From positions 1,172-65,171 of the forward strand of contig JBOEGJ010000003.1 in the NCBI GenBank assembly GCA_050633365.1: a DNA stretch of 64,000 nucleotides, given 5' to 3'. The stretch comes from Cellvibrionaceae bacterium (GTDB lineage: Bacteria > Pseudomonadota > Gammaproteobacteria > Pseudomonadales > Cellvibrionaceae). A model generated the notes under the pieces. That model did not search any database. It saw only the letters and a list, made by a program, of their open reading frames with translations, and was not told where the DNA came from. Positions 11,401-47,375 of this stretch are shown here, one piece after another. The position numbers were made by a program, and so were the translations under genes. Position 1 is the first letter of the stretch. Each line of letters starts with the position of its first letter.

Positions 11401-11559
11401 ACCGTTGACGATGGCGGTTAGAATCACTTGTTCTTGGCCGTCATAGAGCTTAAAAATCGTATTTTGAATGACGATCTTATGGCCCAAATCGACAAAGGCA
11501 TTGAGAAATACCGCCATCATAAAGGGGATGGCGCCAGTGATTTTGAAGAGCTTATTCAT
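8437..11559 (-). CDS. Aas-like MFS + acyltransferase fusion with a degenerate acyl-ACP synthetase domain
   Basis: N-terminal LplT-like MFS, PlsC motifs NHISWID and FPEG; AMP-binding motifs are degraded and the C-terminus is truncated. Confidence 0.9.
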   Translation of the reverse strand: MNKLFKITGAIPFMMAVFLNAFVDLGHKIVIQNTIFKLYDGQEQVILTAIVNGLILLPFILLFSPAGFISDRFPKNHVMRYSAWAAVGLTIGITLCYAAGWFWAAFAMTFLLAMQSAIYSPAKYGYLKGFFGKQNLAEANGIVQAISIVAILAGTLLMSVLFEMWYPEGTTDKAAVLQSLVPIGFMLIAGSIAELFMMYRLPQVDQGSQEKFDLKAYSQGKLLKTNLQPVLSRDVIRLSIVGLAMFWSIGQVMLASFPAFAKEQIGETNTLVIQAIIAATGIGIALGSTIASRFSRNYIETGLIPLGAAGIGIGLWILPTLESPWMMGLDFLLIGTMGGLFIVPLNAMIQFYAGDNEMGRVLAANNLIQNIGMLSFLVLTAVFALLGISSKQLLMLTAVFAVVGGLYTVYKLPQSLVRFLLTYMMSRHYRINVQGMKHVPESGGVLLLGNHISWIDWAIVQIAYPRPVQFVMLKSIYERWYLKWFFDLFGCVPIESGANAEQSLKIVTELLNQGKVVCLFPEGTISRTGHLAEFRRGYERAAQAAESDIVIQPFYIRGLWGSQFSRSSDKLKSLRSRAGGRDLIVSFGELLDKDTEVDVLKRRVLDLSIDSWSGYADSLPTLPQAWIETAKQFSSDMAVANSRTELYPQISQSSLDTLLNARHLSKQIRHQVSGKNVALLLPPSVEATEVTMALLMSGKTVVPLNPAMNTDAWIEAITTARIQTLYTSRTFIEQLISEGFQWESRSKDLNIQLLDQVSQPSRLARRVDSVLFRLLPQSIIQRWWCRKSSPTRTAAILFNQTPSGELEGIKLSHKNIVSNIKQLSDVLNTEERDVMINSDDIHSANGFISCMLLPLIEGIPLVCIPQSIDALTISKIIARYRVTLLCAPTQKLESFLEHEKLHPLMFESLRGIIGVHAQENQSKDLRERFQQTFSKTVLEAFCASPSSPIISINLPDALDFDSWRVQLGGKAGTLGMPLPGSSVKVVDRETQQEADTGAVGEIQFGGVQIMQRFGAEKDHAQWFATHSRGHLDEDGFLCIR

Positions 11560-11659
11560 GAAAGGTGAGTCCTTGCCGGTTGCGTCAATCAATCCAGATT
11601 GCCGTGGGTAGCCTGATGCTACAACTAAAACGGCAATTGTAGTAGTTTATACCTCTCAA

Positions 11660-11678
11660 AGTATCGCTCGATGATACT
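11660..11678. promoter_or_regulatory. Palindromic operator candidate (AGTATC-N7-GATACT)
   Basis: Inverted repeat in the divergent promoter region between the aas-like gene and the HTH regulator. Confidence 0.4.
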
Positions 11679-11775
11679 CTCAATCCCCTAGGTCGATGAT
11701 CTTCCCTCTGTCTTGAAGAATATGGCGAGATAGGAGAGGTAAGGCCGTTGCCGTTATTGCAGAGGACGCTCGCTC

Positions 11776-12507
11776 ATGGCTCAAACCCCCGCGCTTATTG
11801 CGACGCTGAAAAAGCAGCTCAAAGCTTACGGTAAGACCTATGTCGACGTGGCTGAGGCTCTGGATTTAAGTGAGGCCTCAGTAAAGCGATTATTTGCCGG
11901 TGAAAACTTCACTTTGCAGAGGCTCGAAAGCGTTTGCCAGCTGATTGGCGTGGAATTGGCTGAGTTGGTTGCCCTGATGGCCCAGGAGCAACCGCAGCTA
12001 ACACAGCTGACGTTAGAGCAAGAAAAGCAGATCGCGGAAGACTTTATTTTACTGATGGTGGCGCTGAGCGTGATTAACGGTTACACCTTTGCGGATCTGG
12101 TGGATCACTATAAGTTATCCACAACCCGCTGCGTGCAAAAGCTGGCGCATCTCGATCGTTTGAAAATCATCGATCTATTGCCCAATAATCGCATTAAACT
12201 GAAAATATCTCCCAACTTTCGCTGGTTGCCCAATGGGCCAATACAGCAGTTTTTCCACGATAAGGTACAGCAAGATTTTTTCAATTCACGCTTCGATCAA
12301 GAGGGTGAAAAACTCATGGTTCTCAATGGATTGATGAGTCGCGCGAGCAACGCTGAAATGCAGAAGAAAATGCAAAAATTGTCGCGAGAATTTAATGAGC
12401 TCATGCAAGAGGATGCGGCCTTGCCGATGAGCGAAAAATTTGGAACCACCATGGTGTTGGCATTGCGTCATTGGAACTTTGATAACTTCAAAGGCAATAT
12501 GCGCTGA
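11776..12507 (+). CDS. XRE/Cro-type HTH transcriptional regulator
   Basis: TYVDVAEALDLSEASVKRLF HTH; conserved C-terminal WLPNGPIQQFF segment. Confidence 0.85.
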   Translation: MAQTPALIATLKKQLKAYGKTYVDVAEALDLSEASVKRLFAGENFTLQRLESVCQLIGVELAELVALMAQEQPQLTQLTLEQEKQIAEDFILLMVALSVINGYTFADLVDHYKLSTTRCVQKLAHLDRLKIIDLLPNNRIKLKISPNFRWLPNGPIQQFFHDKVQQDFFNSRFDQEGEKLMVLNGLMSRASNAEMQKKMQKLSREFNELMQEDAALPMSEKFGTTMVLALRHWNFDNFKGNMR

Positions 12508-33379: not shown

Positions 33380-34216
33380 TTACCCGAAGGTATGTTCGCT
33401 GGCAGGAAAGACACCTTGCTTCACGTCATCGGCGTATTTTCTCAGCGCACCGGGAATATCATCGGCTTCTACCAAAAAGTTCTTCGAAAACTTTGGCGGT
33501 TGTTCCGTCAGTCCAAGAATGTCATTGATCACCAGTACCTGAGCATCCGTGTCTTTGCCTGCGCCTATACCGATTGTTGGCATAGAGACTGCGTCGGTAA
33601 TACGCTGCGCTAATTCACAGGGTACACACTCCAGTACCAGAAGGTCCGCTCCTGCGGCGTCTAGGGCTTTAGCGTCGGCGAGAATTTGTTCTGCCTGTTC
33701 TTCATTGCGCCCTTGTACACGAAAGCCGCCAAGTTTGTTGACCGATTGCGGTGTGAGCCCCAGATGAGCACAGACGGGAATACCCCGTTCGCCGAGCATC
33801 TGTACGGTCGGTGCCAGCCATTGACCACCTTCGAGTTTTACCATGTGCGCGCCCGCTTGCATGATGCGTGTCGCATTGATCATGGCTTGCTCTGCAGTGG
33901 CGTAAGTCATGAAAGGCATGTCGCCCATAATGAGCGACTTGTCATTGCCTCGCTTAACGGCTTCGACGTGATAAATCATCTGCTCCATGGTGACTGGAAT
34001 AGTGCTGTCGTAACCGAGTACCGTCATGCCGAGGCTGTCGCCCACTAGCAGTACTTCGACGCCGCTCTTTAAGGCCATGGCGGCCATGGGAGCATCGTAA
34101 AGAGCAACAGTGACAAACTTTGTACCCTCCGCTTTCATCTTGCGAAGTGTGAGGGTGGTGATGGCTTTGGTGAGGCCGCTGTTGGCTTGGACGGTTCCGT
34201 ATGGCATAGGTTTCAC
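33380..34216 (-). CDS. panB: 3-methyl-2-oxobutanoate hydroxymethyltransferase
   Basis: LVGDSLG, GDMPF, VKLEG, HLGLTPQS, IGIGAG. Confidence 0.97.
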   Translation of the reverse strand: MKPMPYGTVQANSGLTKAITTLTLRKMKAEGTKFVTVALYDAPMAAMALKSGVEVLLVGDSLGMTVLGYDSTIPVTMEQMIYHVEAVKRGNDKSLIMGDMPFMTYATAEQAMINATRIMQAGAHMVKLEGGQWLAPTVQMLGERGIPVCAHLGLTPQSVNKLGGFRVQGRNEEQAEQILADAKALDAAGADLLVLECVPCELAQRITDAVSMPTIGIGAGKDTDAQVLVINDILGLTEQPPKFSKNFLVEADDIPGALRKYADDVKQGVFPASEHTFG

Positions 34217-34227
34217 ATCTCAGTTAA

Positions 34228-34278
34228 TGACAACGTCGATTACTACAACGTCGATTACAGCGTTGATTACAACGTGGG
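34228..34278 (-). repeat. Four 12-nt tandem units repeating the last codons and stop of the dNK gene
   Basis: Minus strand: CCCACGTTGTAA TCAACGCTGTAA TCGACGTTGTAG TAA TCGACGTTGTCA. Confidence 0.8.
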
Positions 34279-34947
34279 GGTTGGATTGTAATAGTGCCGG
34301 CCGCTTTTGACGGTCAGCATGTATTCCACCAATTGGTGGTAGTGATCTGGATTGTTGGCCAGATCCAATTCGGTGGCATTGACGATCAGCATGGGCGCTC
34401 GATCATAATAATGGAAAAACTGCATGTAAGCATCGTTTAGCGTAGTCAGGTATCCGCTGGCAATATTGCGTTCGGCTTCGACACCGCGATTGCGAATACG
34501 CTCTTCCAGAACATTGTTTGGGGCCTGAAGATAAATGACCAAATCCGGTTCAGGGGCATCAATAGTGAGCTGGTCATAGACCTGCTGATAGATGTTGAGT
34601 TCATCGTCGTCGAGAGTTACCTGGGCGAAGAGTTGATCCTTATCCATTAAAAAGTCGGCGACGCGAGCAGTTTGGAACATATCCTGCTGACGTAAATCTT
34701 GGATTTGCTGCGCTCGTTGAAACAGAAAAAACAGCTGAGTTGGCAGTGCCGCGGCTTTTGGATTGGCGTAAAAACGCTCGAGAAATGGGTTGTCGTCAGC
34801 ACTTTCTTCGAGCAGTTCGTAGCCCAAGGTCTTGGCTAAGTGCTTGGCTAGCGTGGTTTTTCCCACACCGATAGGCCCTTCCACTGCGATAAAGCGTGGC
34901 AGGTCCAAGCCCTGTGTATCGATGGTGATGTTAAAACCGTCACTCAC
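34267..34947 (-). CDS. Deoxynucleoside kinase (dAK/dGK family)
   Basis: IAVEGPIGVGKTT P-loop, NPFLERFY, PDLVIYLQA, RIRNRG. Confidence 0.93.
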   Translation of the reverse strand: MSDGFNITIDTQGLDLPRFIAVEGPIGVGKTTLAKHLAKTLGYELLEESADDNPFLERFYANPKAAALPTQLFFLFQRAQQIQDLRQQDMFQTARVADFLMDKDQLFAQVTLDDDELNIYQQVYDQLTIDAPEPDLVIYLQAPNNVLEERIRNRGVEAERNIASGYLTTLNDAYMQFFHYYDRAPMLIVNATELDLANNPDHYHQLVEYMLTVKSGRHYYNPTPTL

Positions 34948-34960
34948 GGTTTGCTCCTAA

Positions 34961-35452
34961 TCAATCTTGGATGGGATGAAGCCCGTCATTTGAGCAATGT
35001 GCTAATAATGACTCAAGTGCCTCACCCGAGGGAAGTACTAAATCTTTTGCGATATCGGCCAGAGGATAGAGTACAAAATTTCGCTCCGTTAAATAAGCGT
35101 GAGGTACGGTGAGTCGATCAGTTTGGATGGTGTGATCTGCGAATAGCAATAAATCGAGATCCAAGGTGCGCGGTCCCCAATGGATTTTTCGCACTCGCTC
35201 ATGCTCCTGCTCGATTCGTTGCAGTTGATCGAGCAGGGCATGGGCATCGAGATGGGTTTCAATCAGGACTACGCCATTAATGTAATCGGGCTGAACGCCG
35301 GGGCCGACAGCCTTGCTTTGATACCAGCGTGACTGCTGAATAAGTCTAACGCCGTCAATGGCGTCGATCTCTTGTGCCGCGCGCATGACTTGTTCTCGCG
35401 GATTCTCGAGATTACTTCCAAGGCCTATGTAGGCCTGAATCGCCTGAGCCAT
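34961..35452 (-). CDS. folK: 2-amino-4-hydroxy-6-hydroxymethyldihydropteridine diphosphokinase
   Basis: YIGLGSN, QPDYIN, WGPRTLDLDLL, PHAYLTERNFVL. Confidence 0.97.
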   Translation of the reverse strand: MAQAIQAYIGLGSNLENPREQVMRAAQEIDAIDGVRLIQQSRWYQSKAVGPGVQPDYINGVVLIETHLDAHALLDQLQRIEQEHERVRKIHWGPRTLDLDLLLFADHTIQTDRLTVPHAYLTERNFVLYPLADIAKDLVLPSGEALESLLAHCSNDGLHPIQD

Positions 35453-35461
35453 AACCGCTAG

Positions 35462-36826
35462 CTATGAATTTTGAGGCGCGGCGGGTTTGCGTTTGCGCGG
35501 GGAGCGACGGCGTTTGCCTTGTCCTTTACCCTGTCCGAGCTTGGCGACCATGGCCTCACGCCCTTCGCTGTCTTGTTCCTGATAGCGCGTCCACCATTTG
35601 CCGAGGCCATTGAGGTTTTCTCCAGCCTCTTCTCGCATCAAGACAAAGTCGTAAGCGGCGCGAAAGCGTGGGTGCTCAAACAGTCTCTCGGCGCGTTTTC
35701 CTTGGCGGCGAGACAAGCGGTGTTGCAAGTCCCATATTTCACGCATGCTCTGTGTAAAGCGCTTGGGTATTGAGGTGGTTTGCAATTGCTGTGAGACGAT
35801 ATTCTGAGCCGCCTGCTGATGCGCCTGAACCGGTTGCATGCCTTCTTTCTGCAGCTTTTCTTGCTCTGCACAGACCGATGGCCACAGCATGGCTGCGTAA
35901 ATATAGGCTGGCGTGACACGCTGATTGTTCTTTATGCGTTTGTCTGTGTTGATCAGAGCTTGAGTAAACAGTGCCTGAGCGTAGGGAAGGTCATTCTTTA
36001 GGGCGCTGTCCGTTGCCGGCAAGATGTACTGTAAAAGGTCGTATTCGCGAAGCTTGGGTAACACGGCGCTGCCATAGCCGCCCATGAACAGCTTAAGTAC
36101 CTCTTCAAATAGGCGTGCCGCGGGGATATTGCGCAGGAGTGAGCCCAGTTTGTGAATGGGTGCTGCCGTGGCCTTGTCGATGTCGAAGTCCAATTTACCC
36201 GCGAAGCGCACCGCTCGCAGCATGCGCACAGGGTCTTCTTGGTATCGGGTTTCCGCCTTGCCGATAATACGAATTTTGCGATCAACGATGTCTTTAATTC
36301 CGCCGGTGAAATCGTGAACGCTAAATTGATCTAGGGTGTAGTAGAGAGCGTTGACGGTAAAGTCACGGCGGATGGCGTCGGATTGGATGTCGCCATAGAC
36401 GTTATCTCGAAGCAGCATGCCCTCATTGGACTTGGCGCTGTGCTTATTGCCAGCGTTGTCGCTATGGTTGTCGCGGAAGGTGGTTACTTCAATGATCTCT
36501 CGGCCAAAGCGAACGTGAACGATTTTAAAGCGGCGGCCAATAATGCGGGAGTTTCGAAATAGCTGCTTTACCTGCTCAGGAGTGGCATTGGTGGCAATGT
36601 CAAAGTCTTTGGGGCTATCGTCGAGCAGTAAGTCTCGAACGCCTCCACCCACCAAATAGGCCTCATAGCCACCGTCACCTAGGCGCTGCATCACTTTTAC
36701 TGCCGAGTGACTGATCTTGCGCCGAGAGATGTTGTGATCCTCACGCTCGATGATTTGATGTTTGATGGCCTGCGAGTTTTTCGTCAAGGCATTGATGATC
36801 GGTAGGTTAAGCAGCCGCTTCAACAT
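35462..36826 (-). CDS. pcnB: Poly(A) polymerase I
   Basis: LVGGGVRD, PKDFDIAT, IIGRRFKIVHV, RRDFTVNAL, EDPVRMLRA, HPRFRAAYDF. Confidence 0.97.
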   Translation of the reverse strand: MLKRLLNLPIINALTKNSQAIKHQIIEREDHNISRRKISHSAVKVMQRLGDGGYEAYLVGGGVRDLLLDDSPKDFDIATNATPEQVKQLFRNSRIIGRRFKIVHVRFGREIIEVTTFRDNHSDNAGNKHSAKSNEGMLLRDNVYGDIQSDAIRRDFTVNALYYTLDQFSVHDFTGGIKDIVDRKIRIIGKAETRYQEDPVRMLRAVRFAGKLDFDIDKATAAPIHKLGSLLRNIPAARLFEEVLKLFMGGYGSAVLPKLREYDLLQYILPATDSALKNDLPYAQALFTQALINTDKRIKNNQRVTPAYIYAAMLWPSVCAEQEKLQKEGMQPVQAHQQAAQNIVSQQLQTTSIPKRFTQSMREIWDLQHRLSRRQGKRAERLFEHPRFRAAYDFVLMREEAGENLNGLGKWWTRYQEQDSEGREAMVAKLGQGKGQGKRRRSPRKRKPAAPQNS

Positions 36827-36985
36827 GGTCAGAACTACTGAAATGATGGCCTCGGGGGTGCCGGGCGAGTGATAGATGGTCGCTGTTTGCGTGTCTAGCA
36901 GGCAGCGCGATGTAATGGAGGCGCAGTGTACCATGCAGAGGGCAGAATGCCAGTTGTGGGCAGAAGGCGAGAATATGACTGGTCT

Positions 36986-37019
36986 AGAAATGAAAACGGG
37001 AAAGCCTTAGCTTTCCCGT
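36986..37019 (-). terminator. Rho-independent terminator of the CrcZ-like RNA
   Basis: Perfect 10-bp stem ACGGGAAAGC/GCTTTCCCGT (36996-37019) with 4-nt loop, followed on the minus strand by TTTCATTT. Confidence 0.85.
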
Positions 37020-37283
37020 AGAATTTTTTCTTATTGTCCTAGTTTTATTGTGCCGCAAAAGTATTGGCTTCCTTGCTTTGCGGTAATTTGCTCTGTGGCA
37101 AATCCTCTCCAAGTTTTTAGTCAGTTGTAACAGTCAGTTTTAACGCTTTGTTATTATTGTTTTTTGTTGTTATTAGTTTTATCTATCTTTTTATTATTAT
37201 TTGTTGTTTTTATTATTCAGTTTTACTTTTTTATTATTATTTATTGTTGTTATTTTTATAGTTGTAATTTGTTTTTATTATGC
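36988..37283 (-). ncRNA. crcZ: CrcZ-like Hfq/Crc-sequestering sRNA (about 295 nt)
   Basis: Lies between cbrB and pcnB, bounded by a sigma54 promoter and a terminator, has no ORF and is packed with AANAANAA runs; starts GCATAATAAAAACAA. Confidence 0.85.
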
Positions 37284-37293
37284 TGACCTACAA

Positions 37294-37310
37294 AGCATTC
37301 TGCGTGCCAA
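37294..37310 (-). promoter_or_regulatory. sigma54 (RpoN) -24/-12 promoter
   Basis: Minus strand TTGGCACGCAGAATGCT: GG-N10-GC spacing, near-consensus. Confidence 0.88.
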
Positions 37311-37328
37311 CTTTGAAAACTTGTTATT

Positions 37329-37341
37329 AATCAATGGTTTG
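37329..37341 (+). promoter_or_regulatory. IHF binding site
   Basis: AATCAATGGTTTG is an exact match to WATCAANNNNTTR, located between the enhancer and the sigma54 promoter. Confidence 0.7.
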
Positions 37342-37384
37342 GGATTATTTGGTTCACTCCTTATTTGAATTTGTTATTACTACT

Positions 37385-37481
37385 CGTTACCTATTATCTC
37401 GAAAACTGTTACGAACCTATAACCTTGGTAACACTTCCTTACACTGTTTCCGATGGTGGTATCAGATTGTTACGGTGTTAC
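37385..37481. promoter_or_regulatory. Cluster of TGTTAC/GTAACA half-sites (putative CbrB enhancer)
   Basis: CGTTAC 37385, TGTTAC 37407, GTAACA 37428, TGTTAC 37468, TGTTAC 37476. Confidence 0.7.
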
Positions 37482-37690
37482 CGGGTAGGGGGCGCTAGGT
37501 GCGGGTCAGTAGCGGAGAGGCGAGTGTTTAGAGTCGAGGTTAATTGACTCTAAAGAGCACAGGTTTTGAGAGTTGATGTATAGCGGCTTTAAAAGAGGGT
37601 TCGTGTTTGAGGGAGGTGTGGGCTGGGCGGCAGGGCTTGTCTCAGTGCCACTGATTCGTGGCACTCTTACTTGTTTTTGTTCGAAACGGG

Positions 37691-39109
37691 CTATTTGGCG
37701 CCCGCTGCGGTCTTCTTGCGAGGGATCCCCAGTCGCTGGCGTCGCTCCCATAGACACTTGCGGCTCACGCCAAGCTTTCTGGCTAGCTCGGTTTCGCTCA
37801 TGGTGTCTTGATGCTCTAGCACGAAGCGTTGGAAGTAATCTTCCAGCGATAGGTCTTCGTTGGGTTCGGGGGGCATGGCGGTTGTCGATGTGTTGCTCGA
37901 GCTGTGGGCCAAATGAACCTGTTGAATGATTTCATCTGAGCTGTCGCTGATTTGTACCAAGTCCAAATCGATGGCCAGTAGATCGTGGCTGATCTCCTTT
38001 TCATCCTCACAGAGAATTACCGCCCGTTGCATGGCATTTTCGAGTTCGCGAACGTTACCAGGCCAAGTATAGGTTGTTACCGCCTGTACAGATTCTGGTG
38101 AGAGTACCAGTGTGGGTTTGTTCATTTGCTCACAGAAGCGCTGCAATAAGCTCTCTGCCAAGCTGATGATATCTTTGCCTCGGTCTCTCAGGGGCGGAAG
38201 GGTCAGTTGGACTACATTAATCCGGTAGTACAAATCTTCTCGAAATTTGCCCTCTTGGCATAGTTTTCTTAAATCTCTGTGGGTCGCCGCAACTAGGCGC
38301 ACATTGACCTTGCGGGACTCAGTTGCGCCGATGGGGCGAACTTCACCTTCTTGCAGAACCCGTAACAATCGGGCTTGTGCTTCGAGCGGTAACTCTCCGA
38401 TTTCATCCAAGAATAGAGTGCCACCATCGGCGGCGGCGACAAGGCCTTCACTCTTGGCCGCAGCGCCAGTAAAGGCACCTTTTTCGTGACCAAATAATTC
38501 TGATTCGATCAGTGTTTCTGGGATAGCGGCGCAGTTCACGGAGATCATCGCCTGGTTGTTGCGCGGGCTTTCTGAGTGGATGGCTTTAGCGACCAACTCT
38601 TTACCGGTTCCGGTTTCGCCGTGAACCAAGACTGTCGCAGGGGTAGGTGCGACTTTGTGAATTCTATTATAGAGCGTCTTCATTACCGGGCTGGTGCCGA
38701 TCATGCCGGGTATTTGATGGCTAGAGGTCTTGCTCGGTTTCTTCTGACGTGCGGCGTCAGTGGCCTTGCCGATGACGCGTTTTACCGCAGTGACCATTTC
38801 GTCATGATCAAAGGGTTTGGCGATGTAATCGACAGCACCCAGGCGCATGGAGTCCACCGCTGAGCGCAAGCTGGCGTAGCTGGTCATGATCAATACCGGA
38901 ACTTCTCCGGCGGCTTTGATCATGTCAGTGCCAGGGGCGCCAGGTAGGCGAAGATCGCTGATGATTAAGTCGTAACGGGTCAAGTCGTGACGAGTTGTCG
39001 CCTCTTTTACCGACGCAGCCTCGCTCACCGTGTACTTATTGCGCTCTAGTAGCTTGCGCAGTGCAGTACGGATAATGACTTCATCTTCAACTACTAGGAT
39101 GTTACTCAT
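37691..39109 (-). CDS. cbrB: sigma54-dependent response regulator CbrB (REC-AAA+-HTH)
   Basis: SDLRLPG REC, GETGTGKE, GAFTGA, FLDEIGE, WPGNVREL; C-terminal ETELARKLGVSRKCLWERRQRLGIPR; directly downstream of the cbrA-like kinase. Confidence 0.9.
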   Translation of the reverse strand: MSNILVVEDEVIIRTALRKLLERNKYTVSEAASVKEATTRHDLTRYDLIISDLRLPGAPGTDMIKAAGEVPVLIMTSYASLRSAVDSMRLGAVDYIAKPFDHDEMVTAVKRVIGKATDAARQKKPSKTSSHQIPGMIGTSPVMKTLYNRIHKVAPTPATVLVHGETGTGKELVAKAIHSESPRNNQAMISVNCAAIPETLIESELFGHEKGAFTGAAAKSEGLVAAADGGTLFLDEIGELPLEAQARLLRVLQEGEVRPIGATESRKVNVRLVAATHRDLRKLCQEGKFREDLYYRINVVQLTLPPLRDRGKDIISLAESLLQRFCEQMNKPTLVLSPESVQAVTTYTWPGNVRELENAMQRAVILCEDEKEISHDLLAIDLDLVQISDSSDEIIQQVHLAHSSSNTSTTAMPPEPNEDLSLEDYFQRFVLEHQDTMSETELARKLGVSRKCLWERRQRLGIPRKKTAAGAK

Positions 39110-39166
39110 AGGCGCTTTGTTACCCAAGTTGTTACGAGAATGACCAGACAGGCGCCTAGTGTTACC

Positions 39167-42130
39167 TTAGTTGACCTCAGTTTCAAGCTGACGAGGCAAT
39201 TTAATGCGGATTTGGGTGCCAATGGTGCGTCCAGGTGCCGGGCTAATAAGCTCCAGATGCCCCTCGTGCTCCTCGACGATACTGTAGACCATGGCCAGGC
39301 CAAGGCCTGTTCCTTCACCTGGATCCTTACTGGTAAAAAAGGGCTCCAATACCCGCTCTTGATGCTCTTTCGGGATGCCGCTGCCTTCATCGGTCACTGT
39401 GACGACCATGTGGCGGCCCTCGTAGGCCCCATCGACCACAATTTCGCTGTTTTCAGGGCTGGCATCGCGAGCATTAGAGAGCAGGTTGATAAACACTTGA
39501 ATCAGGCGTTGAGGATCGGCCCTCACTAGGCTGTCTTCATTGAGGTGATTCACAAACCTGACCGGTTTTTTTTCTTTTTGTAGGGACAGAAGCTGGATGG
39601 CCTCTTCCGCGCAGTCGCGCAGTGGAACGCTCATGAAATCCGCTTTTTCCTGTTGCCCGGTGTGTGAAAAGCTCACCAGTGACTGAACAATACGGCCCAC
39701 GCGATCGGTTTGGCTGAGGATTTGTTCGGCCGTTTCAATCGCCGCTTGCGGGTCGTCGGTCTCGTAGCGCAGATTCTGGGCGAGACAGGCAATACCGGTG
39801 ATGGGATTTCCGATTTCGTGAGCGACACCGGCGGCAACTCGGCCAACCGAGGCAAGGCGCTCACTGTGCACGAGCTCTTGTTCTAGTAGCTGAGTCTCGG
39901 TCATGTCCTCCAATAGAATGACCTGGCCGTCGGCGGTATTGGCGGCGGGACCGGCAATATTAGCTTTATGCAGGCTGATCCAATGGGGGCGATCGCCGAG
40001 ATTGAGTTGGTGTTTGTGTAGGTGTGGCATCGGACTGAGGGAGAAATCTTCGAGTAGTTTTCGCCAGGGCGCTTGCAGGTCATCGAGGTGCGAGCCGATA
40101 ACGCGATCCCCGGAGATTCCAGTAAGCTTCTCCATGGCGTGATTCCACATGAGAATTTCCATATCTTGGCCCAGTGAACACACTGCCATTGGCAGCTCTT
40201 CCAGTGTGTTTCGGTGGTAGAGTCGCAAGTTGTTGAGCTCGGCCGCGAGGCCGGTCAGATGGCTGCGGTACTGGGTTAAGCGGTTTTCGATCAAATTAAT
40301 ATCCGCGGTGCCCTTTGCTTCAGGCAGGTGATAGGGGATTTTTCGATCGAGAATTTCATTGGCCACCGCGGTTCCCATCAGGCCAGATAAGTTGGCCTCG
40401 AGTTTATCTCTGAGTTGGCGCAGAGCATAAGGGCGGCGCTCATGGCTGGGCAGGTTGAGCTCTTCTAGGGCTTTGCGAACTTCCTTGCGGGCGGTCGAGC
40501 CTCCTAAGCTGTCACTCAGGCGATCGCTAAATTCATCGGCGCTGTGCACATCGAGAATCATCCGCAATGGATGACTGAGTTCATCTTCGGCGCACAATTC
40601 GGCGCTGTAGCGCTCTTCGACACTGGGTTGCGTCAGCAGTGAAATGGCGACGAAGGCACTGAGATTTATGCCTAGAGACAACAGCGTGATGGTATTCCAG
40701 TGTTCCATACCCACTGGAATGGAAAGCGATAGCAGGCTGATATCAATTTGGGTGATACCGCAAAGTGTGGGGATTAGCATGCTGCCTAGCCAAACGAGGC
40801 TGCCCAGTGTTAAGCCGATGATAAAGCCGCGAGAGTTGGCGTTGGGCCAATAAGCAACCGCTAAAATACCGGGTAAAAACTGTAAGGTTTCAATAAAGGC
40901 CATTAATGCCAAATGGGTGAGGCTTAACCGATTGGCGAGAATTAGATAAAAGATGTAGCCCATGGCAAACACCGCCATGATGACAAAGCGCCGCAGCCAC
41001 AGCAGTTGGTGGTAGAGGTTGCGACCGCGGCCCAGTCGAGTCGCGGGCAGAATCCATTGATTGAGTATCATGGTGCTGAGCGCCAATCCTAAAGACACCA
41101 TAGCGCCAGTGGCCGCGGATAGGCCGCCCAGAAACGCTAAAATGGTGAGTGATGGCGATTGCGCCAGCATGGGAATACCCAGAGTAAAATACTGAGCCGG
41201 TAGCGGCACGCCTAACTCGAATCCCGCCCACAGAATCGGAAAAATCGGCAGTGCCATGAGCAATAAAAACAGAGGAAATGCCCAGCTCAATGTCGAGGTC
41301 ATTTGTTTTAGCGGGCTCTCAACCACACTCATATGGAAAATGTGAGGCATGGCCACTGCGGTCGCGAGAAAGACCAGTAACAGTGTGTGTGAAGCGGTGT
41401 CTTTAATGGGACTGTGCAACAGTTCCAGGTTTTCTGGGTAGTCGAGTAGCCATTGGTCGAGTCCGTCCATTCCGCCAAAAACACCGTAGACCGCCAATAA
41501 ACCAATGGCGCACAGGGCGATGACTTTGACCAGAGTTTCAAAGGCCATGGCCACCACTAGCCCTGGGTGATGATCACGGCTCGATCCAAACAAAATGGTG
41601 AACAATGCCAGAATTACGCAATACCCTAGTGCCATAACCTCGCGAAAGCTCCACCCGCTGAAAGCCTCCGGCAGCGCTTGTGATTTATCCAGGGTGAGAA
41701 TTTGAAGCGTGTCGGCAACCGCTTGTATTTGCAGGGCCAGCAGCGGCAGGGAGGCCAGCAGCATGCATGCCGTCGCGAGCGATCCCGCGACTTGGCTGTG
41801 GTAGCGAAACACCAATAAATCGGCGAGGCTACTGATTTGAAAACGTCTTGCCAGTTGTGCCAGCGGCGCAATGGCCACGGGGGCGAAAAAAAACAAAGCG
41901 CCGGTACCGAGATAATAAGCTAGGGCGCCGTAGCCAAACTGAAACGCTAAATCAATGACGCCGTAAAATGCCCAGGCGCTGGCAAAAATACCCAGAGATA
42001 AGACGTAGGTCAGTGGATGACGAGAAATTTTCTGAGAGATGTAGCCTTTTTCGGCGCTGAACGCGATGGTGAAGAGGACGAATAAATAGGCGATGCCGAC
42101 TAAAGCAATTTCTGCAATTTCAAAGGTCAT
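39167..42130 (-). CDS. cbrA: CbrA-type sensor kinase (SLC5 transporter-like TM domain + PAS + HisKA/HATPase)
   Basis: About 13 TM segments, YVLSLGIFASAW, AHEIGNP, QVFINLLSNARDA, GTGLGL; start ATG 42130 overlaps the cbrX stop. Confidence 0.92.
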   Translation of the reverse strand: MTFEIAEIALVGIAYLFVLFTIAFSAEKGYISQKISRHPLTYVLSLGIFASAWAFYGVIDLAFQFGYGALAYYLGTGALFFFAPVAIAPLAQLARRFQISSLADLLVFRYHSQVAGSLATACMLLASLPLLALQIQAVADTLQILTLDKSQALPEAFSGWSFREVMALGYCVILALFTILFGSSRDHHPGLVVAMAFETLVKVIALCAIGLLAVYGVFGGMDGLDQWLLDYPENLELLHSPIKDTASHTLLLVFLATAVAMPHIFHMSVVESPLKQMTSTLSWAFPLFLLLMALPIFPILWAGFELGVPLPAQYFTLGIPMLAQSPSLTILAFLGGLSAATGAMVSLGLALSTMILNQWILPATRLGRGRNLYHQLLWLRRFVIMAVFAMGYIFYLILANRLSLTHLALMAFIETLQFLPGILAVAYWPNANSRGFIIGLTLGSLVWLGSMLIPTLCGITQIDISLLSLSIPVGMEHWNTITLLSLGINLSAFVAISLLTQPSVEERYSAELCAEDELSHPLRMILDVHSADEFSDRLSDSLGGSTARKEVRKALEELNLPSHERRPYALRQLRDKLEANLSGLMGTAVANEILDRKIPYHLPEAKGTADINLIENRLTQYRSHLTGLAAELNNLRLYHRNTLEELPMAVCSLGQDMEILMWNHAMEKLTGISGDRVIGSHLDDLQAPWRKLLEDFSLSPMPHLHKHQLNLGDRPHWISLHKANIAGPAANTADGQVILLEDMTETQLLEQELVHSERLASVGRVAAGVAHEIGNPITGIACLAQNLRYETDDPQAAIETAEQILSQTDRVGRIVQSLVSFSHTGQQEKADFMSVPLRDCAEEAIQLLSLQKEKKPVRFVNHLNEDSLVRADPQRLIQVFINLLSNARDASPENSEIVVDGAYEGRHMVVTVTDEGSGIPKEHQERVLEPFFTSKDPGEGTGLGLAMVYSIVEEHEGHLELISPAPGRTIGTQIRIKLPRQLETEVN

Positions 42131-42296
42131 TGGTGTTGCTTCGCTTCTGAAAAATAAACGCGGTGGTAATGAGAGCGGCCCAAATAATGTACGGGCGATA
42201 CCAAGCACCTTCGGGATTGACCATCCAGGTGAACAGCGTCGGCGAAAATATATACGCGACCAATAAAATCAGAATCAATAACCGCTGATTGTGCAT
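42120..42296 (-). CDS. cbrX: Small membrane peptide CbrX-like (58 aa), not in the ORF track
   Basis: MHNQRLLILILLVAYIFSPTLFTWMVNPEGAWYRPYIIWAALITTAFIFQKRSNTNDL; 11-nt overlap with the cbrA start. Confidence 0.85.
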   Translation of the reverse strand: MHNQRLLILILLVAYIFSPTLFTWMVNPEGAWYRPYIIWAALITTAFIFQKRSNTNDL

Positions 42297-42367: not shown

Positions 42368-43282
42368 TCAGTCTGGCATTGGTGTTTGGTCTAGTTCGAT
42401 TTTGGTTGTGCGCGGCACTTTTGATCGCTGCCAATTTATCACGCCCCAGTTAAGCTGGGTCTCACAGTCTTCTTTTTGCAGGTTGGGCGGTGGTGCTAAT
42501 CCAAGCCGAGCCAGCGCAAGCCAGAGGTTGTCCGATGCCTGGGCGTTCGACAGTGGCTCGGCAAATGTCTGTTTGCTCAATTTTTGCCCCTGTGAATTGA
42601 CGATCACTGGCAAGTGGCCGTAGCTAGGTTGTGGCGCTCCGAATTGTTCAAACAAATACAACTGTCTCGCCGTCGATGACATCAAGTCGATGCCGCGAAT
42701 TACCTGCGTAATACCTTGATCGATGTCATCCACCGTGACTGCCAGTTGATAGGCGAACAGGCCGTCTTTTCGATGAATGACAAAGTCACCCACTTCGCGA
42801 TTGAGATGTTGCGTTTGATGGCCTTGAAACACATCTTCAAAACGGATCTCGCTGCCGGGTTTGAGTTTGACGCGAGTGGCGACAGGCTGTGATCTCTGCG
42901 GCACATGATGTCGGCAGTGGCCGTCGTAAGCGGGCAAATTCTTTAGTCGCTGGCGGTTGCAATCGCAGGGGTAGCACAGCTGTTTGGCTTTTAGTTCGGC
43001 GAGGCGCTCGTTATAGGCATTTTGGCGTTGGCTTTGGTAGATGACCTTCTGGTCCCAATGCAATCCATGGGTTTCAAGTGCTCTTAGGATCGAGTCGGCG
43101 GCGCCAGCTTGTTCGCGAGGTGGATCTAAATCTTCCATCCGCACCAGCCATTGCCCCTGTACTTGGCGAGCGTCGAGATAGGACGCGACGGCGGTCAATA
43201 GCGAGCCTTGATGAAGCTCGCCAGTAGGCGAAGGTGCAAAGCGACCAATGTAAGGTGAGCTGCTGCTGAGAGGTGTCGACAC
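42368..43282 (-). CDS. gluQ: Glutamyl-Q tRNA(Asp) synthetase
   Basis: GRFAPSPTGELH, RMEDLDPPRE, YQLAV, VIRGIDL, KLSKQ. Confidence 0.95.
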   Translation of the reverse strand: MSTPLSSSSPYIGRFAPSPTGELHQGSLLTAVASYLDARQVQGQWLVRMEDLDPPREQAGAADSILRALETHGLHWDQKVIYQSQRQNAYNERLAELKAKQLCYPCDCNRQRLKNLPAYDGHCRHHVPQRSQPVATRVKLKPGSEIRFEDVFQGHQTQHLNREVGDFVIHRKDGLFAYQLAVTVDDIDQGITQVIRGIDLMSSTARQLYLFEQFGAPQPSYGHLPVIVNSQGQKLSKQTFAEPLSNAQASDNLWLALARLGLAPPPNLQKEDCETQLNWGVINWQRSKVPRTTKIELDQTPMPD

Positions 43283-43312
43283 GGATGCGAGTCTACTGGT
43301 TGGGGAAAAACT

Positions 43313-43338
43313 AAAAAGGCGCTCTAGAGCGCCTTTTT
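43313..43338 (-). terminator. Terminator hairpin between dksA and gluQ
   Basis: Perfect 26-nt palindrome AAAAAGGCGCTCTAGAGCGCCTTTTT. Confidence 0.8.
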
Positions 43339-43352
43339 ATCGAGCGGATGGA

Positions 43353-43796
43353 TTAACCACCGACTTGACGTTCTTTGATCTCATCCAAGGTTTTGCAGTC
43401 GATACACTGGGTTGCCGTTGGGCGAGCTTCCAATCGACGAATACCGATATTGACTCCACAGGTTTCGCAGTAGCCGTAATCATCGTCTTCGATCAGCTGC
43501 ATGGTGCTGTCGATTTTTTTGATCAATTTACGCTCGCGGTCACGAGTACGCAGCTCTAAGCTAAATTCTTCTTCTTGGCTGGCGCGATCGGCGGGATCAG
43601 GAAAGTTGGCGGCCTCGTCTTTCATGTGAGACACGGTGCGGTCAACTTCTTCCATTAGTTCAGTTTTCCATGTTTGAAGCAGGCCACGGAAGTGATCCTT
43701 CTGTGCTTCATTCATGTACTCTTCACCCTTTTTCTCTTTGTAAGGAACGAATCCTCTCAGAGTGATACTGTCGGTGTTTTTAGAGCTTTTCGGCAT
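43353..43796 (-). CDS. dksA: RNA polymerase-binding factor DksA
   Basis: FPDPADRASQEEE, CETCG, RLEARPTATQCIDCK. Confidence 0.97.
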   Translation of the reverse strand: MPKSSKNTDSITLRGFVPYKEKKGEEYMNEAQKDHFRGLLQTWKTELMEEVDRTVSHMKDEAANFPDPADRASQEEEFSLELRTRDRERKLIKKIDSTMQLIEDDDYGYCETCGVNIGIRRLEARPTATQCIDCKTLDEIKERQVGG

Positions 43797-44228
43797 CTTC
43801 GTGCGCCTCGTTGTGTCTTCCAATATTATTCGTGAGGTTGGGGCGTTTCGCCCAATTTCAAGGCCATCCTCGCCCGATCGAGCAAGCTACCAGATCTCCC
43901 TTGAAGCCGCCAGCGTTTTCCCATGAAAAGCGGCAGACCAACTAGGTGTGAATTGGCGCAGGGCGCGGATACTGCGCCTCTCGGGTAAATCTGTCAACTG
44001 TAAAAAGGTTAAATCTCGATGTCGCAAGCATTTGTTTCCTCGAGATTGCAGTTTTAGCGTCAATTCATACACTAGGGGCAAATTTCGCGCCTTCTTGGTG
44101 CAGTCCGCGTGGCAGTCGGCAGTGCAGAGGTTTCTGCCTCGGCTGATGTGCGCGATCGTTGGTGCCTGGCGGATGTCGCGAGACCGAGGCGAGTTATAAA
44201 TGAATAAAGGATAGTTAAGGAGAGTGAC

Positions 44229-46982: not shown

Positions 46983-47261
46983 TTAAGTTTCGCTGGCTAA
47001 GGCTTCTTCAGCATCGGCAACCAGTCGCTGTTTCAGGTCTTGTTCTAGATCATTCCAATGAACGTCTAGCAAGGCGCCTTGAAGTGCGTACAGCATTACC
47101 TTCGAGACGTGAATGCCTCTGGCTTTGATGCGAATATAGGCTTCTACAGGGCCCATGTTATTTAAGTCGGCGTAAGAATTAACGCCTATCGCGTGCAGAA
47201 TATTAACTGAGGCTGCCCCCAGGTTTTTGAGCTGGAGCAAATCACTATGACTATCCGTCAT
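46983..47261 (-). CDS. TfoX/Sxy C-terminal-domain protein
   Basis: LLQLKNLGAAS, MGPVEAY, SKVMLYALQGALLDVHW. Confidence 0.9.
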   Translation of the reverse strand: MTDSHSDLLQLKNLGAASVNILHAIGVNSYADLNNMGPVEAYIRIKARGIHVSKVMLYALQGALLDVHWNDLEQDLKQRLVADAEEALASET

Positions 47262-47375
47262 AAAGGCGAGTCCCCAAAAAGGTTAGTTGTTATTGTTATT
47301 GTGTCTGTGGTTTAGCCCGAAGACTGTGTGGTTATAATACATGCTTCCAAGATGATCGCAAATGTGACGTAGAAT

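What the first reader, a model, noticed from the sequence alone, without database searches (positions are those of the whole stretch)
36988..42296. Complete cbrX-cbrA-cbrB-crcZ catabolite-repression module in an apparently non-pseudomonad genome
Seen: all four parts are present in Pseudomonas order and followed by pcnB-folK. Here a deoxynucleoside kinase is inserted before panB, panC/panD are absent from the window, and GC is about 50% by eye. Established: CbrAB/CrcZ/Crc-Hfq control has been characterised mainly in Pseudomonadaceae. Inference: the circuit is conserved in a wider marine gammaproteobacterial clade and may rank different carbon sources there.
Basis: partly seen in the sequence, partly recalled or inferred. 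Interest (0 to 1): 0.65.

Follow-up and report, generated by a model that had tools for sequence, protein, structure and literature searches.

The report
CbrXAB-CrcZ carbon switch in Cellvibrionaceae
A marine Cellvibrionaceae bacterium carries the whole Pseudomonas-type carbon-preference switch (cbrX-cbrA-cbrB plus a divergent CrcZ-like decoy RNA, with Crc and Hfq elsewhere), and a genome survey shows the switch is inherited across most of the wider order, although reviews call it unique to the Pseudomonas family.

Summary
The minus strand reads dksA-gluQ-cbrX-cbrA-cbrB-[non-coding RNA]-pcnB-folK-dNK-panB. CbrA and CbrB are reciprocal best hits of the Pseudomonas proteins. In a tree, CbrB falls inside one CbrB clade, apart from 13 NtrC-type paralogues. 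CbrX (58 aa) overlaps cbrA by the same 11 nt as in Pseudomonas.

The cbrB-pcnB gap holds a sigma-54 promoter. CbrB half-sites TGTTAC and GTAACA lie 124 and 103 nt before it, as in Pseudomonas. A GTAACG subsite and an IHF consensus lie between. About 296 nt follow, with eight (AAN)n tracts and a 10-bp terminator. This is the densest AANAANAA cluster in the 4.87-Mb genome (26 per 300 nt; next best 7).

Rfam's CrcZ model does not reach threshold (23 bits against 95). I therefore call the RNA a divergent positional orthologue, not an RF01675 member. Crc (next to pyrE), Hfq and RpoN are present.

The genome is Cellvibrionaceae. Full-length cbrA occurs in 225 of 301 sampled genomes of the GTDB order and in 21 genomes outside it. 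The module is ancestral there, not Pseudomonadaceae-specific.

This is a new member of a known kind, of moderate interest.

The parts
42120..42296 (-). cbrX: 58-aa two-helix membrane peptide; its last 11 nt overlap the start of cbrA
   Evidence: ORF. tblastn finds homologues in 79 of 80 loci, 40-41% identical to Pseudomonas over the full length. The alignment shows conserved FSP...W...WYRPY...W, the same 58-aa length, and an 11-nt overlap in most families. [quoted passage not shown]
39167..42130 (-). cbrA: SLC5-STAC-PAS-DHp-CA sensor kinase ('transceptor'), 987 aa
   Evidence: Pfam finds PAS, HisKA and HATPase_c. Residues 1-601 match PDB 10ed_A, a 606-aa 'histidine kinase' (SLC5-STAC construct), at E=2.4e-162. 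Identity to Pseudomonas CbrA is 50-51% over the full length. Reciprocal best hit: 872 against 246 bits. 7 of 9 reported ligand-pocket residues and K196 are kept.
37691..39127 (-). cbrB: NtrC-family sigma-54 activator (REC, AAA+, HTH), 478 aa
   Evidence: Pfam finds Response_reg and Sigma54_activat (9e-74). No NCBIfam equivalog cut-off is reached. Reciprocal best hits: 574 against 283 bits and 614 against 320 bits. CbrB clade support is 100. GAFTGA is at residue 217, and the HTH is 83% identical to Pseudomonas.
37644..37665 (-). hairpin just after the cbrB stop, with no T-run on the minus strand
   Evidence: One search lists it on the plus strand. Its role is untested.
37380..37481 (-). enhancer: CbrB subsites F1 TGTTAC (37433-37428), R1 GTAACA (37412-37407), R2 GTAACG (37390-37385), plus two further GTAACA (37481-37468)
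   Evidence: F1 and R1 lie 124 and 103 nt before the TGGCAC box, the same offsets as in about 50 Pseudomonas loci. The subsites were defined experimentally in P. putida (PMC6296734). The exact F1-R1-sigma54 pattern occurs once in this genome.
37329..37341 (-). IHF consensus (CAAACCATTGATT, the reverse complement of WATCAANNNNTTR) between enhancer and promoter
   Evidence: The same site, 32 nt before the promoter, is in 3 of the other listed Cellvibrionaceae or Dasania loci. An exact consensus is present in only 15 of 70 loci.
37295..37309 (-). sigma-54 promoter TGGCAC-N5-ATGC
   Evidence: No sigma-70-like promoter is found in the region. rpoN is present in the genome.
36992..37287 (-). crcZ-like non-coding RNA, about 296 nt (5' end inferred from the promoter). 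It has eight (AAN)nAA tracts, seven of them in the first 140 nt, then ACUGACU and GCAnGGAnGC boxes
   Evidence: On the RNA's own strand the only listed ORF of at least 25 aa is a 42-aa TTG ORF at its 3' end. 93 of 103 motif nucleotides are unpaired in the MFE fold. Rfam CrcZ scores 23.1 bits, E=6e-4, below the gathering score of 95.
36996..37019 (-). intrinsic terminator: 10-bp stem, 6 G-C pairs, then a T-run
   Evidence: The hairpin is conserved in 12 Cellvibrionaceae sequences, and 4 of 10 pairs keep pairing through changes on both sides.
33380..36934 (-). downstream conserved context: pcnB (35462-36934), folK (34961-35452), deoxynucleoside kinase (34267-34947), panB (33380-34216)
42368..43823 (-). 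upstream conserved context: gluQ (42368-43282), dksA (43353-43823)

Best explanation
The locus is the vertically inherited orthologue of the Pseudomonas cbrX-cbrA-cbrB-crcZ module, in a Cellvibrionaceae genome.

Proposed mechanism, by analogy with Pseudomonas and not tested here:
1. CbrA, in complex with the CbrX peptide, senses carbon or energy status and phosphorylates CbrB.
2. CbrB binds the TGTTAC/GTAACA/GTAACG subsites. With IHF bending and RpoN, it activates a single sigma-54 promoter.
3. That promoter drives a roughly 296-nt, largely unstructured, A-rich RNA.
4. The RNA's eight (AAN)n tracts titrate Hfq, probably with the Crc-like protein, away from A-rich ribosome-binding regions of catabolic and uptake mRNAs. 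This relieves catabolite repression.

Shown here: gene order, orthology, cis-element architecture, motif content, the presence of crc, hfq and rpoN, and the phylogenetic spread.

Inferred: transcription, Hfq/Crc binding, and the physiological output.
For: - Synteny dksA-gluQ-cbrX-cbrA-cbrB-gap-pcnB-folK-panB is shared with Pseudomonas and more than 10 other families.
- CbrA and CbrB are reciprocal best hits.
- The CbrB clade is separated from 13 paralogues at 100% support, and its internal topology follows taxonomy.
- CbrA residues 1-601 match the solved SLC5-STAC structure 10ed at E=2e-162.
- CbrX is conserved with the same 11-nt overlap.
- The promoter and CbrB subsites sit at the same offsets as in Pseudomonas. 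Those subsites were defined experimentally (PMC6296734).
- The CbrB HTH is the best-conserved domain, at 83% identity.
- The A-rich tract cluster is unique in the genome and enriched in the window.
- The terminator is called independently and has compensatory changes.
- The Crc-like protein's best PDB hit is P. aeruginosa Crc (E=1e-74). Catalytic residues are lost (GNWGMAH, SSHLP).
- crc lies divergent to pyrE, as in Pseudomonas, Cellvibrio and Marinobacter.
- The RNA-contact patch K135-R141 is kept (residues from PMC6422490).
- Hfq is 87% identical to E. coli Hfq over residues 1-68. RpoN is present.
Against:
- Rfam CrcZ reaches only 23 of the 95 bits required.
- Outside the terminator, no conserved secondary structure was found.
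- The Crc dimer-interface residues R229, R230, F231, R233 and W255 are not conserved here or in Cellvibrio. Three RNA-contact residues also differ (R162Q, R196T; K155R is conservative). The Pseudomonas 2:2:2 Hfq/Crc/RNA assembly may therefore not form.
- Two pocket residues of CbrA differ (Y51F, F71A).
- Enrichment of A-rich motifs at start codons is only 2.1-fold over a T-rich control. That is weak evidence for a regulon.
Confidence: 0.8

Rival explanations
1. The RNA is made under CbrB control, but it works as an Hfq-only sponge, or in a different Hfq/Crc assembly, or as a base-pairing sRNA. On this reading the 'Crc' protein in this family does something else.
For: The Crc dimer-interface residues (R229, R230, F231, R233, W255) and some RNA contacts (R162, R196) are replaced in the window's protein and in Cellvibrio (roles from PMC6422490). 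The conserved ACUGACU and GCAnGGAnGC boxes in the 3' half have no known counterpart.
Against: The K135-R141 patch and E142 are conserved. The catalytic residues are lost as in Crc. crc-pyrE synteny is kept. The A-rich tracts fit the Hfq distal-face ARN rule, as in amiE and CrcZ (PMC6422490).
Confidence: 0.15
2. The A-rich stretch is not a separate gene. It is a spacer or a 5' leader of pcnB, and the promoter and terminator are chance consensus matches.
For: No expression data are available. The terminator scan finds 3 sites against 1.7 expected in shuffles. Rfam is below threshold.
Against: The motif density is unique in the genome (26 against at most 7 elsewhere). The exact F1-R1-sigma54 pattern occurs once in this genome. 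It occurs in 55 of 301 genomes of the order, next to cbrA in the matches I compared, and in 0 genomes in the reversed control. The terminator is conserved with compensatory changes. A promoter, A-rich tracts and a terminator recur in 12 Cellvibrionaceae loci.
Confidence: 0.04
3. The module was acquired from a pseudomonad by horizontal transfer.
For: None found. Reviews place the system only in Pseudomonas and Azotobacter (PMC8871633).
Against: The CbrB tree follows taxonomy: Cellvibrionaceae are monophyletic and sister to Spongiibacteraceae-type sequences. The flanking housekeeping genes are syntenic in all families. GC is like the rest of the window. All 9 sampled genomes of the family carry cbrA.
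Confidence: 0.01

Closest known systems
CbrA/CbrB two-component system with CbrX of Pseudomonas putida, P. aeruginosa and P. fluorescens, and of Azotobacter vinelandii
   Same: Same gene order and flanks. Same domain architecture: SLC5-STAC-PAS-DHp-CA for CbrA and REC-AAA+-HTH with GAFTGA for CbrB. Same 58-aa CbrX with an 11-nt overlap. Reciprocal best hits. K196 and 7 of 9 pocket residues are kept. The CbrB HTH is 83% identical.
   Different: Identity is only 50-51% for CbrA and 60-65% for CbrB. The pocket changes Y51F and F71A are shared by the four Cellvibrionaceae sequences examined. The host family is Cellvibrionaceae, and a deoxynucleoside kinase lies between folK and panB.
CrcZ sRNA (Rfam RF01675) of Pseudomonas and Azotobacter
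   Same: Same position between cbrB and pcnB. Sigma-54 promoter with CbrB subsites at the same offsets. Multiple AAnAAnAA (ARN) tracts. Rho-independent terminator.
   Different: About 296 nt instead of about 400. It has eight tracts, seven of them packed in a nearly unstructured 5' half with 52% A. It scores 23 bits against a gathering score of 95, whereas Pseudomonas scores 343-367, Stutzerimonas 296 and Halopseudomonas 119. No second copy (crcY or crcX) is detectable in this genome.
Crc of Pseudomonas aeruginosa (PDB 4jg3; Hfq/Crc/amiE complexes 6o1k-6o1m)
   Same: It is the best PDB hit (254 bits, ahead of true exonucleases at 198 bits or less). The ExoIII catalytic Asp and Asn are lost. 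It is divergent to pyrE. The K135-R141 and E142 patch is kept.
   Different: The dimer-interface residues R229, R230, F231, R233 and W255 are replaced by G, N, R, E and L. R162Q, E193Q and R196T also differ. NCBIfam would name it exodeoxyribonuclease III.
CrbS/CrbR (SLC5-STAC hybrid kinase with a LuxR-type regulator, acetate switch)
   Same: The SLC5-STAC-kinase architecture.
   Different: CrbS carries a C-terminal REC domain and pairs with a non-sigma-54 regulator (PMC5715377). The window's kinase lacks REC and pairs with a sigma-54 activator. A separate full-length paralogue, 25% identical, lies on contig C20.

Membership tests
CbrA sensor kinase | N-terminal SLC5 transporter plus STAC domain fused to PAS-DHp-CA, with no receiver domain | tested here: met
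   PDB 10ed_A (SLC5-STAC construct) matches residues 1-601 at E=2.4e-162. PAS, HisKA and HATPase_c cover residues 640-981. Pfam SSF itself gives no hit at E up to 0.1.
CbrA sensor kinase | Orthology to Pseudomonas CbrA (reciprocal best hit, conserved neighbourhood) | tested here: met
   872 bits against 246 for the next paralogue. Conserved synteny in 80 loci.
CbrA sensor kinase | Ligand pocket and Na2-site lysine as in the P. putida structure | tested here: inconclusive
   K196, S53, W55, A56, Y75, F248 and F406 are kept. Y51F and F71A differ (residues from PMC13022988).
CbrX | A hydrophobic peptide of about 58 aa immediately upstream of cbrA and overlapping it | tested here: met
   58 aa, 11-nt overlap, 40-41% identity to Pseudomonas CbrX.
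CbrB response regulator | REC plus sigma-54 AAA+ (with GAFTGA) plus C-terminal HTH, encoded directly after cbrA | tested here: met
CbrB response regulator | Falls in the CbrB clade and not with NtrC or other paralogues | tested here: met
   The branch separating 32 cbr-locus proteins from 13 paralogues has 100% SH-aLRT support. Reciprocal best hits hold. This was a quick tree with LG+G4 and no bootstrap.
CrcZ (Rfam RF01675) | Score at or above the family's gathering threshold (95 bits) | tested here: not met
   No hit at the gathering score. 23.1 bits, E=6e-4, in E-value mode. The positive controls from Pseudomonas, Stutzerimonas and Halopseudomonas score 119-367 bits.
CrcZ (Rfam RF01675) | Located between cbrB and pcnB, and transcribed from a sigma-54 promoter with upstream CbrB subsites | tested here: met
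   Promoter at 37309-37295. TGTTAC, GTAACA and GTAACG lie 124, 103 and 81 nt before it. Transcription itself was not tested.
CrcZ (Rfam RF01675) | Several A-rich CA/ARN motifs in unpaired regions | tested here: met
   Eight (AAN)nAA tracts. 93 of 103 motif nucleotides are unpaired in the MFE fold.
CrcZ (Rfam RF01675) | Binds Hfq (with Crc) and antagonises translational repression; levels rise on poor carbon sources | not testable with these tools
Crc | ExoIII-fold protein without catalytic residues, closest to Pseudomonas Crc, next to pyrE | tested here: met
Crc | Residues for RNA contact and Crc-Crc dimerisation in the Hfq/Crc/RNA complex | tested here: inconclusive
   K135, R138, K139, R140, R141, E142 and W161 are kept. 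R162, E193, R196, R229, R230, F231, R233 and W255 are not.

The most novel reading that the evidence does not exclude
In Cellvibrionaceae the ancestral Cbr circuit may have been rewired for polysaccharide scavenging, in three ways:
- a CbrA with an opened pocket gate (F71A, Y51F) senses a different ligand;
- a compact CrcZ-like RNA, with seven tandem ARN tracts, sponges Hfq;
- a Crc that cannot form the Pseudomonas-type dimer gives a different repressor assembly.

On this reading the main targets would be TonB-dependent receptor and symporter mRNAs, so the hierarchy of substrates would differ from the organic-acids-first rule of Pseudomonas.
Probability: 0.2. Interest if true: 0.6.

Novelty: new member of a known kind. 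Interest (0 to 1): 0.45.

Why it matters
Reviews and primary papers state that CbrAB/CrcZ is exclusive to Pseudomonas and Azotobacter (PMC8871633; PMC6296734 abstract). In the library I could search, no listed paper linked CbrA, CbrB or CrcZ in substance to Cellvibrio, Marinobacter or Halomonas.

The data here point the other way:
- The whole module, down to the spacing of CbrB subsites and the cbrX overlap, is ancestral to most of the GTDB order Pseudomonadales.
- It reaches some neighbouring orders.
- The standard RNA family model misses the RNA outside Pseudomonadaceae.

This makes carbon-source hierarchy in ecologically important marine polysaccharide and hydrocarbon degraders directly testable with known genetics. 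It gives an evolutionary series of natural CrcZ variants, from about 100 to about 500 nt and from 3 to 13 tracts, for studying Hfq sponging. It also argues for widening RF01675 and for adding CbrA and CbrB equivalog models to annotation pipelines.

It is an extension of a known system, not a new mechanism.

Tried and rejected
- Rfam at the gathering score gave nothing in the window. The CrcZ model is too narrow for this lineage.
- My first pattern survey used too short a gap between R1 and the promoter. It missed the window itself. I repeated it with the right spacing.
- One genome search failed, and one Rfam call exceeded the size limit.
- RNAalifold on the 3' half of 12 Cellvibrionaceae RNAs found only the terminator as a conserved structure. 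I therefore built no covariance model.
- A second sRNA copy (crcY or crcX) was sought by motif density and by the enhancer-promoter pattern. None was found.
- Pfam SSF does not detect the CbrA transporter domain even at E up to 0.1. The PDB match does detect it.
- NCBIfam has no CbrA, CbrB or Crc-specific model that reaches its cut-off.
- The target-mRNA scan is exploratory. It uses crude gene calls and shows only a 2.1-fold excess over a T-rich control.
- Horizontal transfer was considered and rejected.


Full report
**Observation**

The minus strand of the window reads as follows:
- dksA, 43353-43823
- gluQ, 42368-43282
- a 58-aa ORF, 42120-42296
- a 987-aa sensor kinase, 39167-42130
- a 478-aa sigma-54 activator, 37691-39127
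- a 756-nt gap
- pcnB, 35462-36934
- folK, 34961-35452
- a deoxynucleoside kinase, 34267-34947
- panB, 33380-34216

The ORF lister starts the kinase at a GTG at 42208. All homologues begin at the ATG at 42130 with MTF(D/E).... The small ORF therefore ends 11 nt inside the kinase gene (AATGACCTTTGA). GC is 0.45-0.54 per 2 kb. panC lies on another contig, C10. I did not look for panD.

**The two-component system**

The kinase carries PAS, HisKA and HATPase_c domains. Its first 601 residues match PDB entry 10ed_A, a 606-aa 'histidine kinase', at E=2.4e-162. I take this entry to be the SLC5-STAC construct of P. putida CbrA described in PMC13022988. Pfam's SSF model does not detect this domain.

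Identity to Pseudomonas CbrA is 50-51% over the full length. By domain it is 48% in SLC5 and 54-57% elsewhere.

Orthology tests:
- Pseudomonas CbrA finds the window gene at 872 bits; the next paralogue scores 246 bits.
- Pseudomonas CbrB finds the window gene at 574 bits against 283.
- In the reverse direction, the window's CbrB finds the cbrB locus of a complete Pseudomonas genome at 614 bits against 320.
- In a quick maximum-likelihood tree, 32 cbr-locus regulators form one clade. It is separated at 100% SH-aLRT from 13 NtrC-family paralogues taken from this genome and from Pseudomonas.

Inside that clade the topology follows taxonomy. Cellvibrionaceae are monophyletic (100). They are sister to Dasania, Zhongshania and Spongiibacter (98). 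The core Pseudomonas-type genera group together (99); Halopseudomonas joins them, paired with the Endozoicomonadaceae MAG, on branches below the 95% mark. Marinobacter groups with Oleiphilaceae.

CbrB has GAFTGA at residue 217. Its HTH is its best-conserved domain, 83% identical to Pseudomonas against 64-68% for REC and AAA+.

The small ORF is a true CbrX. It is 58 aa, 40-41% identical to Pseudomonas CbrX over its full length, with a conserved FSP...W...WYRPY...W pattern. Most families, Pseudomonas included, share the same 11-nt overlap.

**The RNA gene**

Reading the cbrB-pcnB gap in order on the minus strand:
- two GTAACA, 37481-37468
- TGTTAC, 37433-37428
- GTAACA, 37412-37407
- GTAACG, 37390-37385
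- an IHF consensus, 37341-37329
- TGGCACGCAGAATGC, 37309-37295
- about 296 nt that are 52% A
- a 10-bp terminator, 37019-36996

TGTTAC and GTAACA are the CbrB subsites F1 and R1 defined by mutagenesis and footprinting in P. putida. R2 there reads GTAACg (PMC6296734). In the window, F1 and R1 lie 124 and 103 nt before the TGGCAC box. About 50 Pseudomonas loci have the same offsets to within 1-2 nt.

The RNA has eight (AAN)nAA tracts, seven of them within its first 140 nt. 93 of 103 tract nucleotides are unpaired in the MFE fold.

The cluster is unique:
- It has 26 AANAANAA starts in 300 nt. The next best stretch in 4.87 Mb has 7, and the mean is 0.16.
- 17 of the window's 29 (AAN)3AA matches fall here, against 4.5 expected for the whole window.
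- The enhancer-promoter pattern occurs once in the genome, so I see no crcY or crcX.

Rfam's CrcZ model gives no hit at threshold and 23.1 bits in E-value mode. As controls, it scores 367 and 343 bits in Pseudomonas, 296 in Stutzerimonas and 119 in Halopseudomonas. It scores nothing in three Cellvibrionaceae loci, Marinobacter or Spongiibacter. The RNA is therefore a divergent positional orthologue, not a member of RF01675 as that family is defined.

Twelve Cellvibrionaceae loci carry the same unit. Lengths are 218-406 nt with 5-13 tracts of a recurring AUAACAACAAnnAAUAAnAA type. They share ACUGACU and GCAnGGAnGC boxes and a terminator in which 4 of 10 pairs show compensatory changes. No other conserved structure was found.

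**Rest of the circuit**

The genome encodes the following:
- A 257-aa ExoIII-fold protein whose best PDB hit is P. aeruginosa Crc (4jg3, 254 bits; true exonucleases score 198 bits or less). It has lost the catalytic Asp and Asn (GNWGMAH; SSHLP).
- pyrE, which lies divergent to that gene, as in Pseudomonas, Cellvibrio and Marinobacter.
- Hfq.
- RpoN.

Of the Crc residues that contact RNA in the Hfq/Crc/amiE complex (PMC6422490):
- K135, R138, K139, R140, R141 and W161 are kept, as is the dimer-interface residue E142.
- K155R is conservative.
- R162Q and R196T differ.
- The dimer-interface residues R229, R230, F231, R233 and W255 are not conserved here or in Cellvibrio.

The Crc step is therefore the least secure part of the analogy.

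**Distribution**

Named loci with the full synteny include:
- Cellvibrio, Marinimicrobium, Gilvimarinus, Agarilytica, Marinagarivorans and Ca. Endobugula
- Dasania, Zhongshania and Spongiibacter
- Marinobacter and Oleiphilaceae
- Bermanella, Oleispira and Motiliproteus
- Endozoicomonadaceae
- a Moraxellaceae MAG
- many Pseudomonas

The deoxynucleoside kinase between folK and panB is found only in the Cellvibrionaceae and Spongiibacteraceae-type loci.

In an even sample of the GTDB order, 225 of 301 genomes, 102 of 135 genera and 9 of 9 genomes of the window's family have a single full-length cbrA.

The exact F1-R1-sigma54 pattern occurs in 55 of 301 genomes, against none for the reversed control. 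Where I compared coordinates (own-family genomes), it lies just downstream of cbrA-cbrB (compared).

In a sample of the class, 24 of 250 genomes have cbrA, 21 of them outside the order.

Crc-like genes at 40-76% identity are present in 12 of 13 genomes tested across families.

**Literature**

Reviews and papers call the system 'unique to Pseudomonadaceae' or 'exclusive of the Pseudomonads' (PMC8871633; PMC6296734 abstract). Searches pairing CbrA, CbrB or CrcZ with Cellvibrio, Marinobacter, Halomonas or the order names returned only incidental co-mentions, judged from titles, abstracts and term counts. The library is incomplete, so absence there is not proof.

Earlier notes of this scan report the same circuit in Halomonas, Halieaceae, Pseudohongiellaceae and others. 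They agree with my survey but are not independent evidence.

**What may differ here**

Two of the nine residues lining the P. putida CbrA pocket differ in all four Cellvibrionaceae sequences examined. They are Y51F and the gate residue F71A. The Na2-site lysine K196 is kept.

I made an exploratory scan for (AAN)3AA within -45 to +15 of SD-preceded start codons. It gave 33 candidates, and I annotated 20 of them. These include four TonB-dependent receptors, two SSF symporters, a GntP permease and an M19 dipeptidase. The excess of A-rich over T-rich motifs at starts is only 2.1-fold (172 against 81 of 3093). This is a lead, not a finding.

**Verdict**

The locus is a new member, in Cellvibrionaceae, of the known CbrXAB-CrcZ system. 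Its RNA has diverged beyond the current family model.

Transcription, Hfq/Crc binding and physiological output are inferred. No read data could be consulted.

Noticed in passing
own genome contig C20:63277-66360 (outside the window): A second full-length SLC5-type sensor kinase, 25% identical to Pseudomonas CbrA over residues 8-980. It may be a CrbS-like paralogue.
   Followed up: no
G042:C17:30587-31213; G209:C5:87710-88355; G173:C6:9535-9996; G302:C13:8512-8989: Two CbrB-subsite plus sigma-54 promoters lie in tandem, 330-510 nt apart. In G042 and G209 I checked that they lie downstream of cbrA-cbrB. All four genomes belong to one family of the order (f37). This suggests duplicated crcZ-like genes.
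   Followed up: partly
L076 (Zhongshania), L084 (Spongiibacter), L078 (Cellvibrionales MAG), cbrB-pcnB gaps: Miniature versions of the RNA: only about 98-114 nt from promoter to terminator, with 3 A-rich tracts.
   Followed up: partly
L077 (Endozoicomonadaceae MAG), 10420-12136: The cbrB-pcnB gap is 1717 nt. It has no sigma-54 promoter match, no CbrB half-sites and only one AANAANAA. The RNA gene may be lost or replaced there.
   Followed up: no
window 47287-47300 (-), upstream of the 92-aa ORF 46983-47261 (-): AATAACAATAACAA lies 26-39 nt before the ATG of a small ORF. It is a CA-motif-like site and a possible Hfq/Crc target inside the window.
   Followed up: no
L023 ('Pantoea sp. Ap-967'), L047 ('Leclercia tamurae', 7.1-Mb chromosome), L071 ('Dongiaceae' MAG): Records labelled as Enterobacterales or Alphaproteobacteria carry cbr loci. 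L023 and L047 are indistinguishable from Pseudomonas ones in identity and synteny. L071 carries a divergent cbr locus (CbrA 46% identical to the window's) that groups with uncultured gammaproteobacteria in the CbrB tree. These are probably mislabelled or contaminated assemblies.
   Followed up: no
G232:C1:3310629-3313592: In one genome of the window's own family, cbrA is interrupted by a TAA stop. This may be a pseudogene or a sequencing error.
   Followed up: no
L028 (Stutzerimonas) 10418-10480: Rfam 'Pseudomonas sRNA P36' (47 bits, above its threshold) lies between cbrB and crcZ. It overlaps the crcZ enhancer region.
   Followed up: no
window 37644-37665: An 8-bp G+C-rich hairpin lies immediately after the cbrB stop codon, with no T-run on the coding strand. 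It could modulate read-through from cbrB into the RNA gene, as reported for P. putida crcZ.
   Followed up: no
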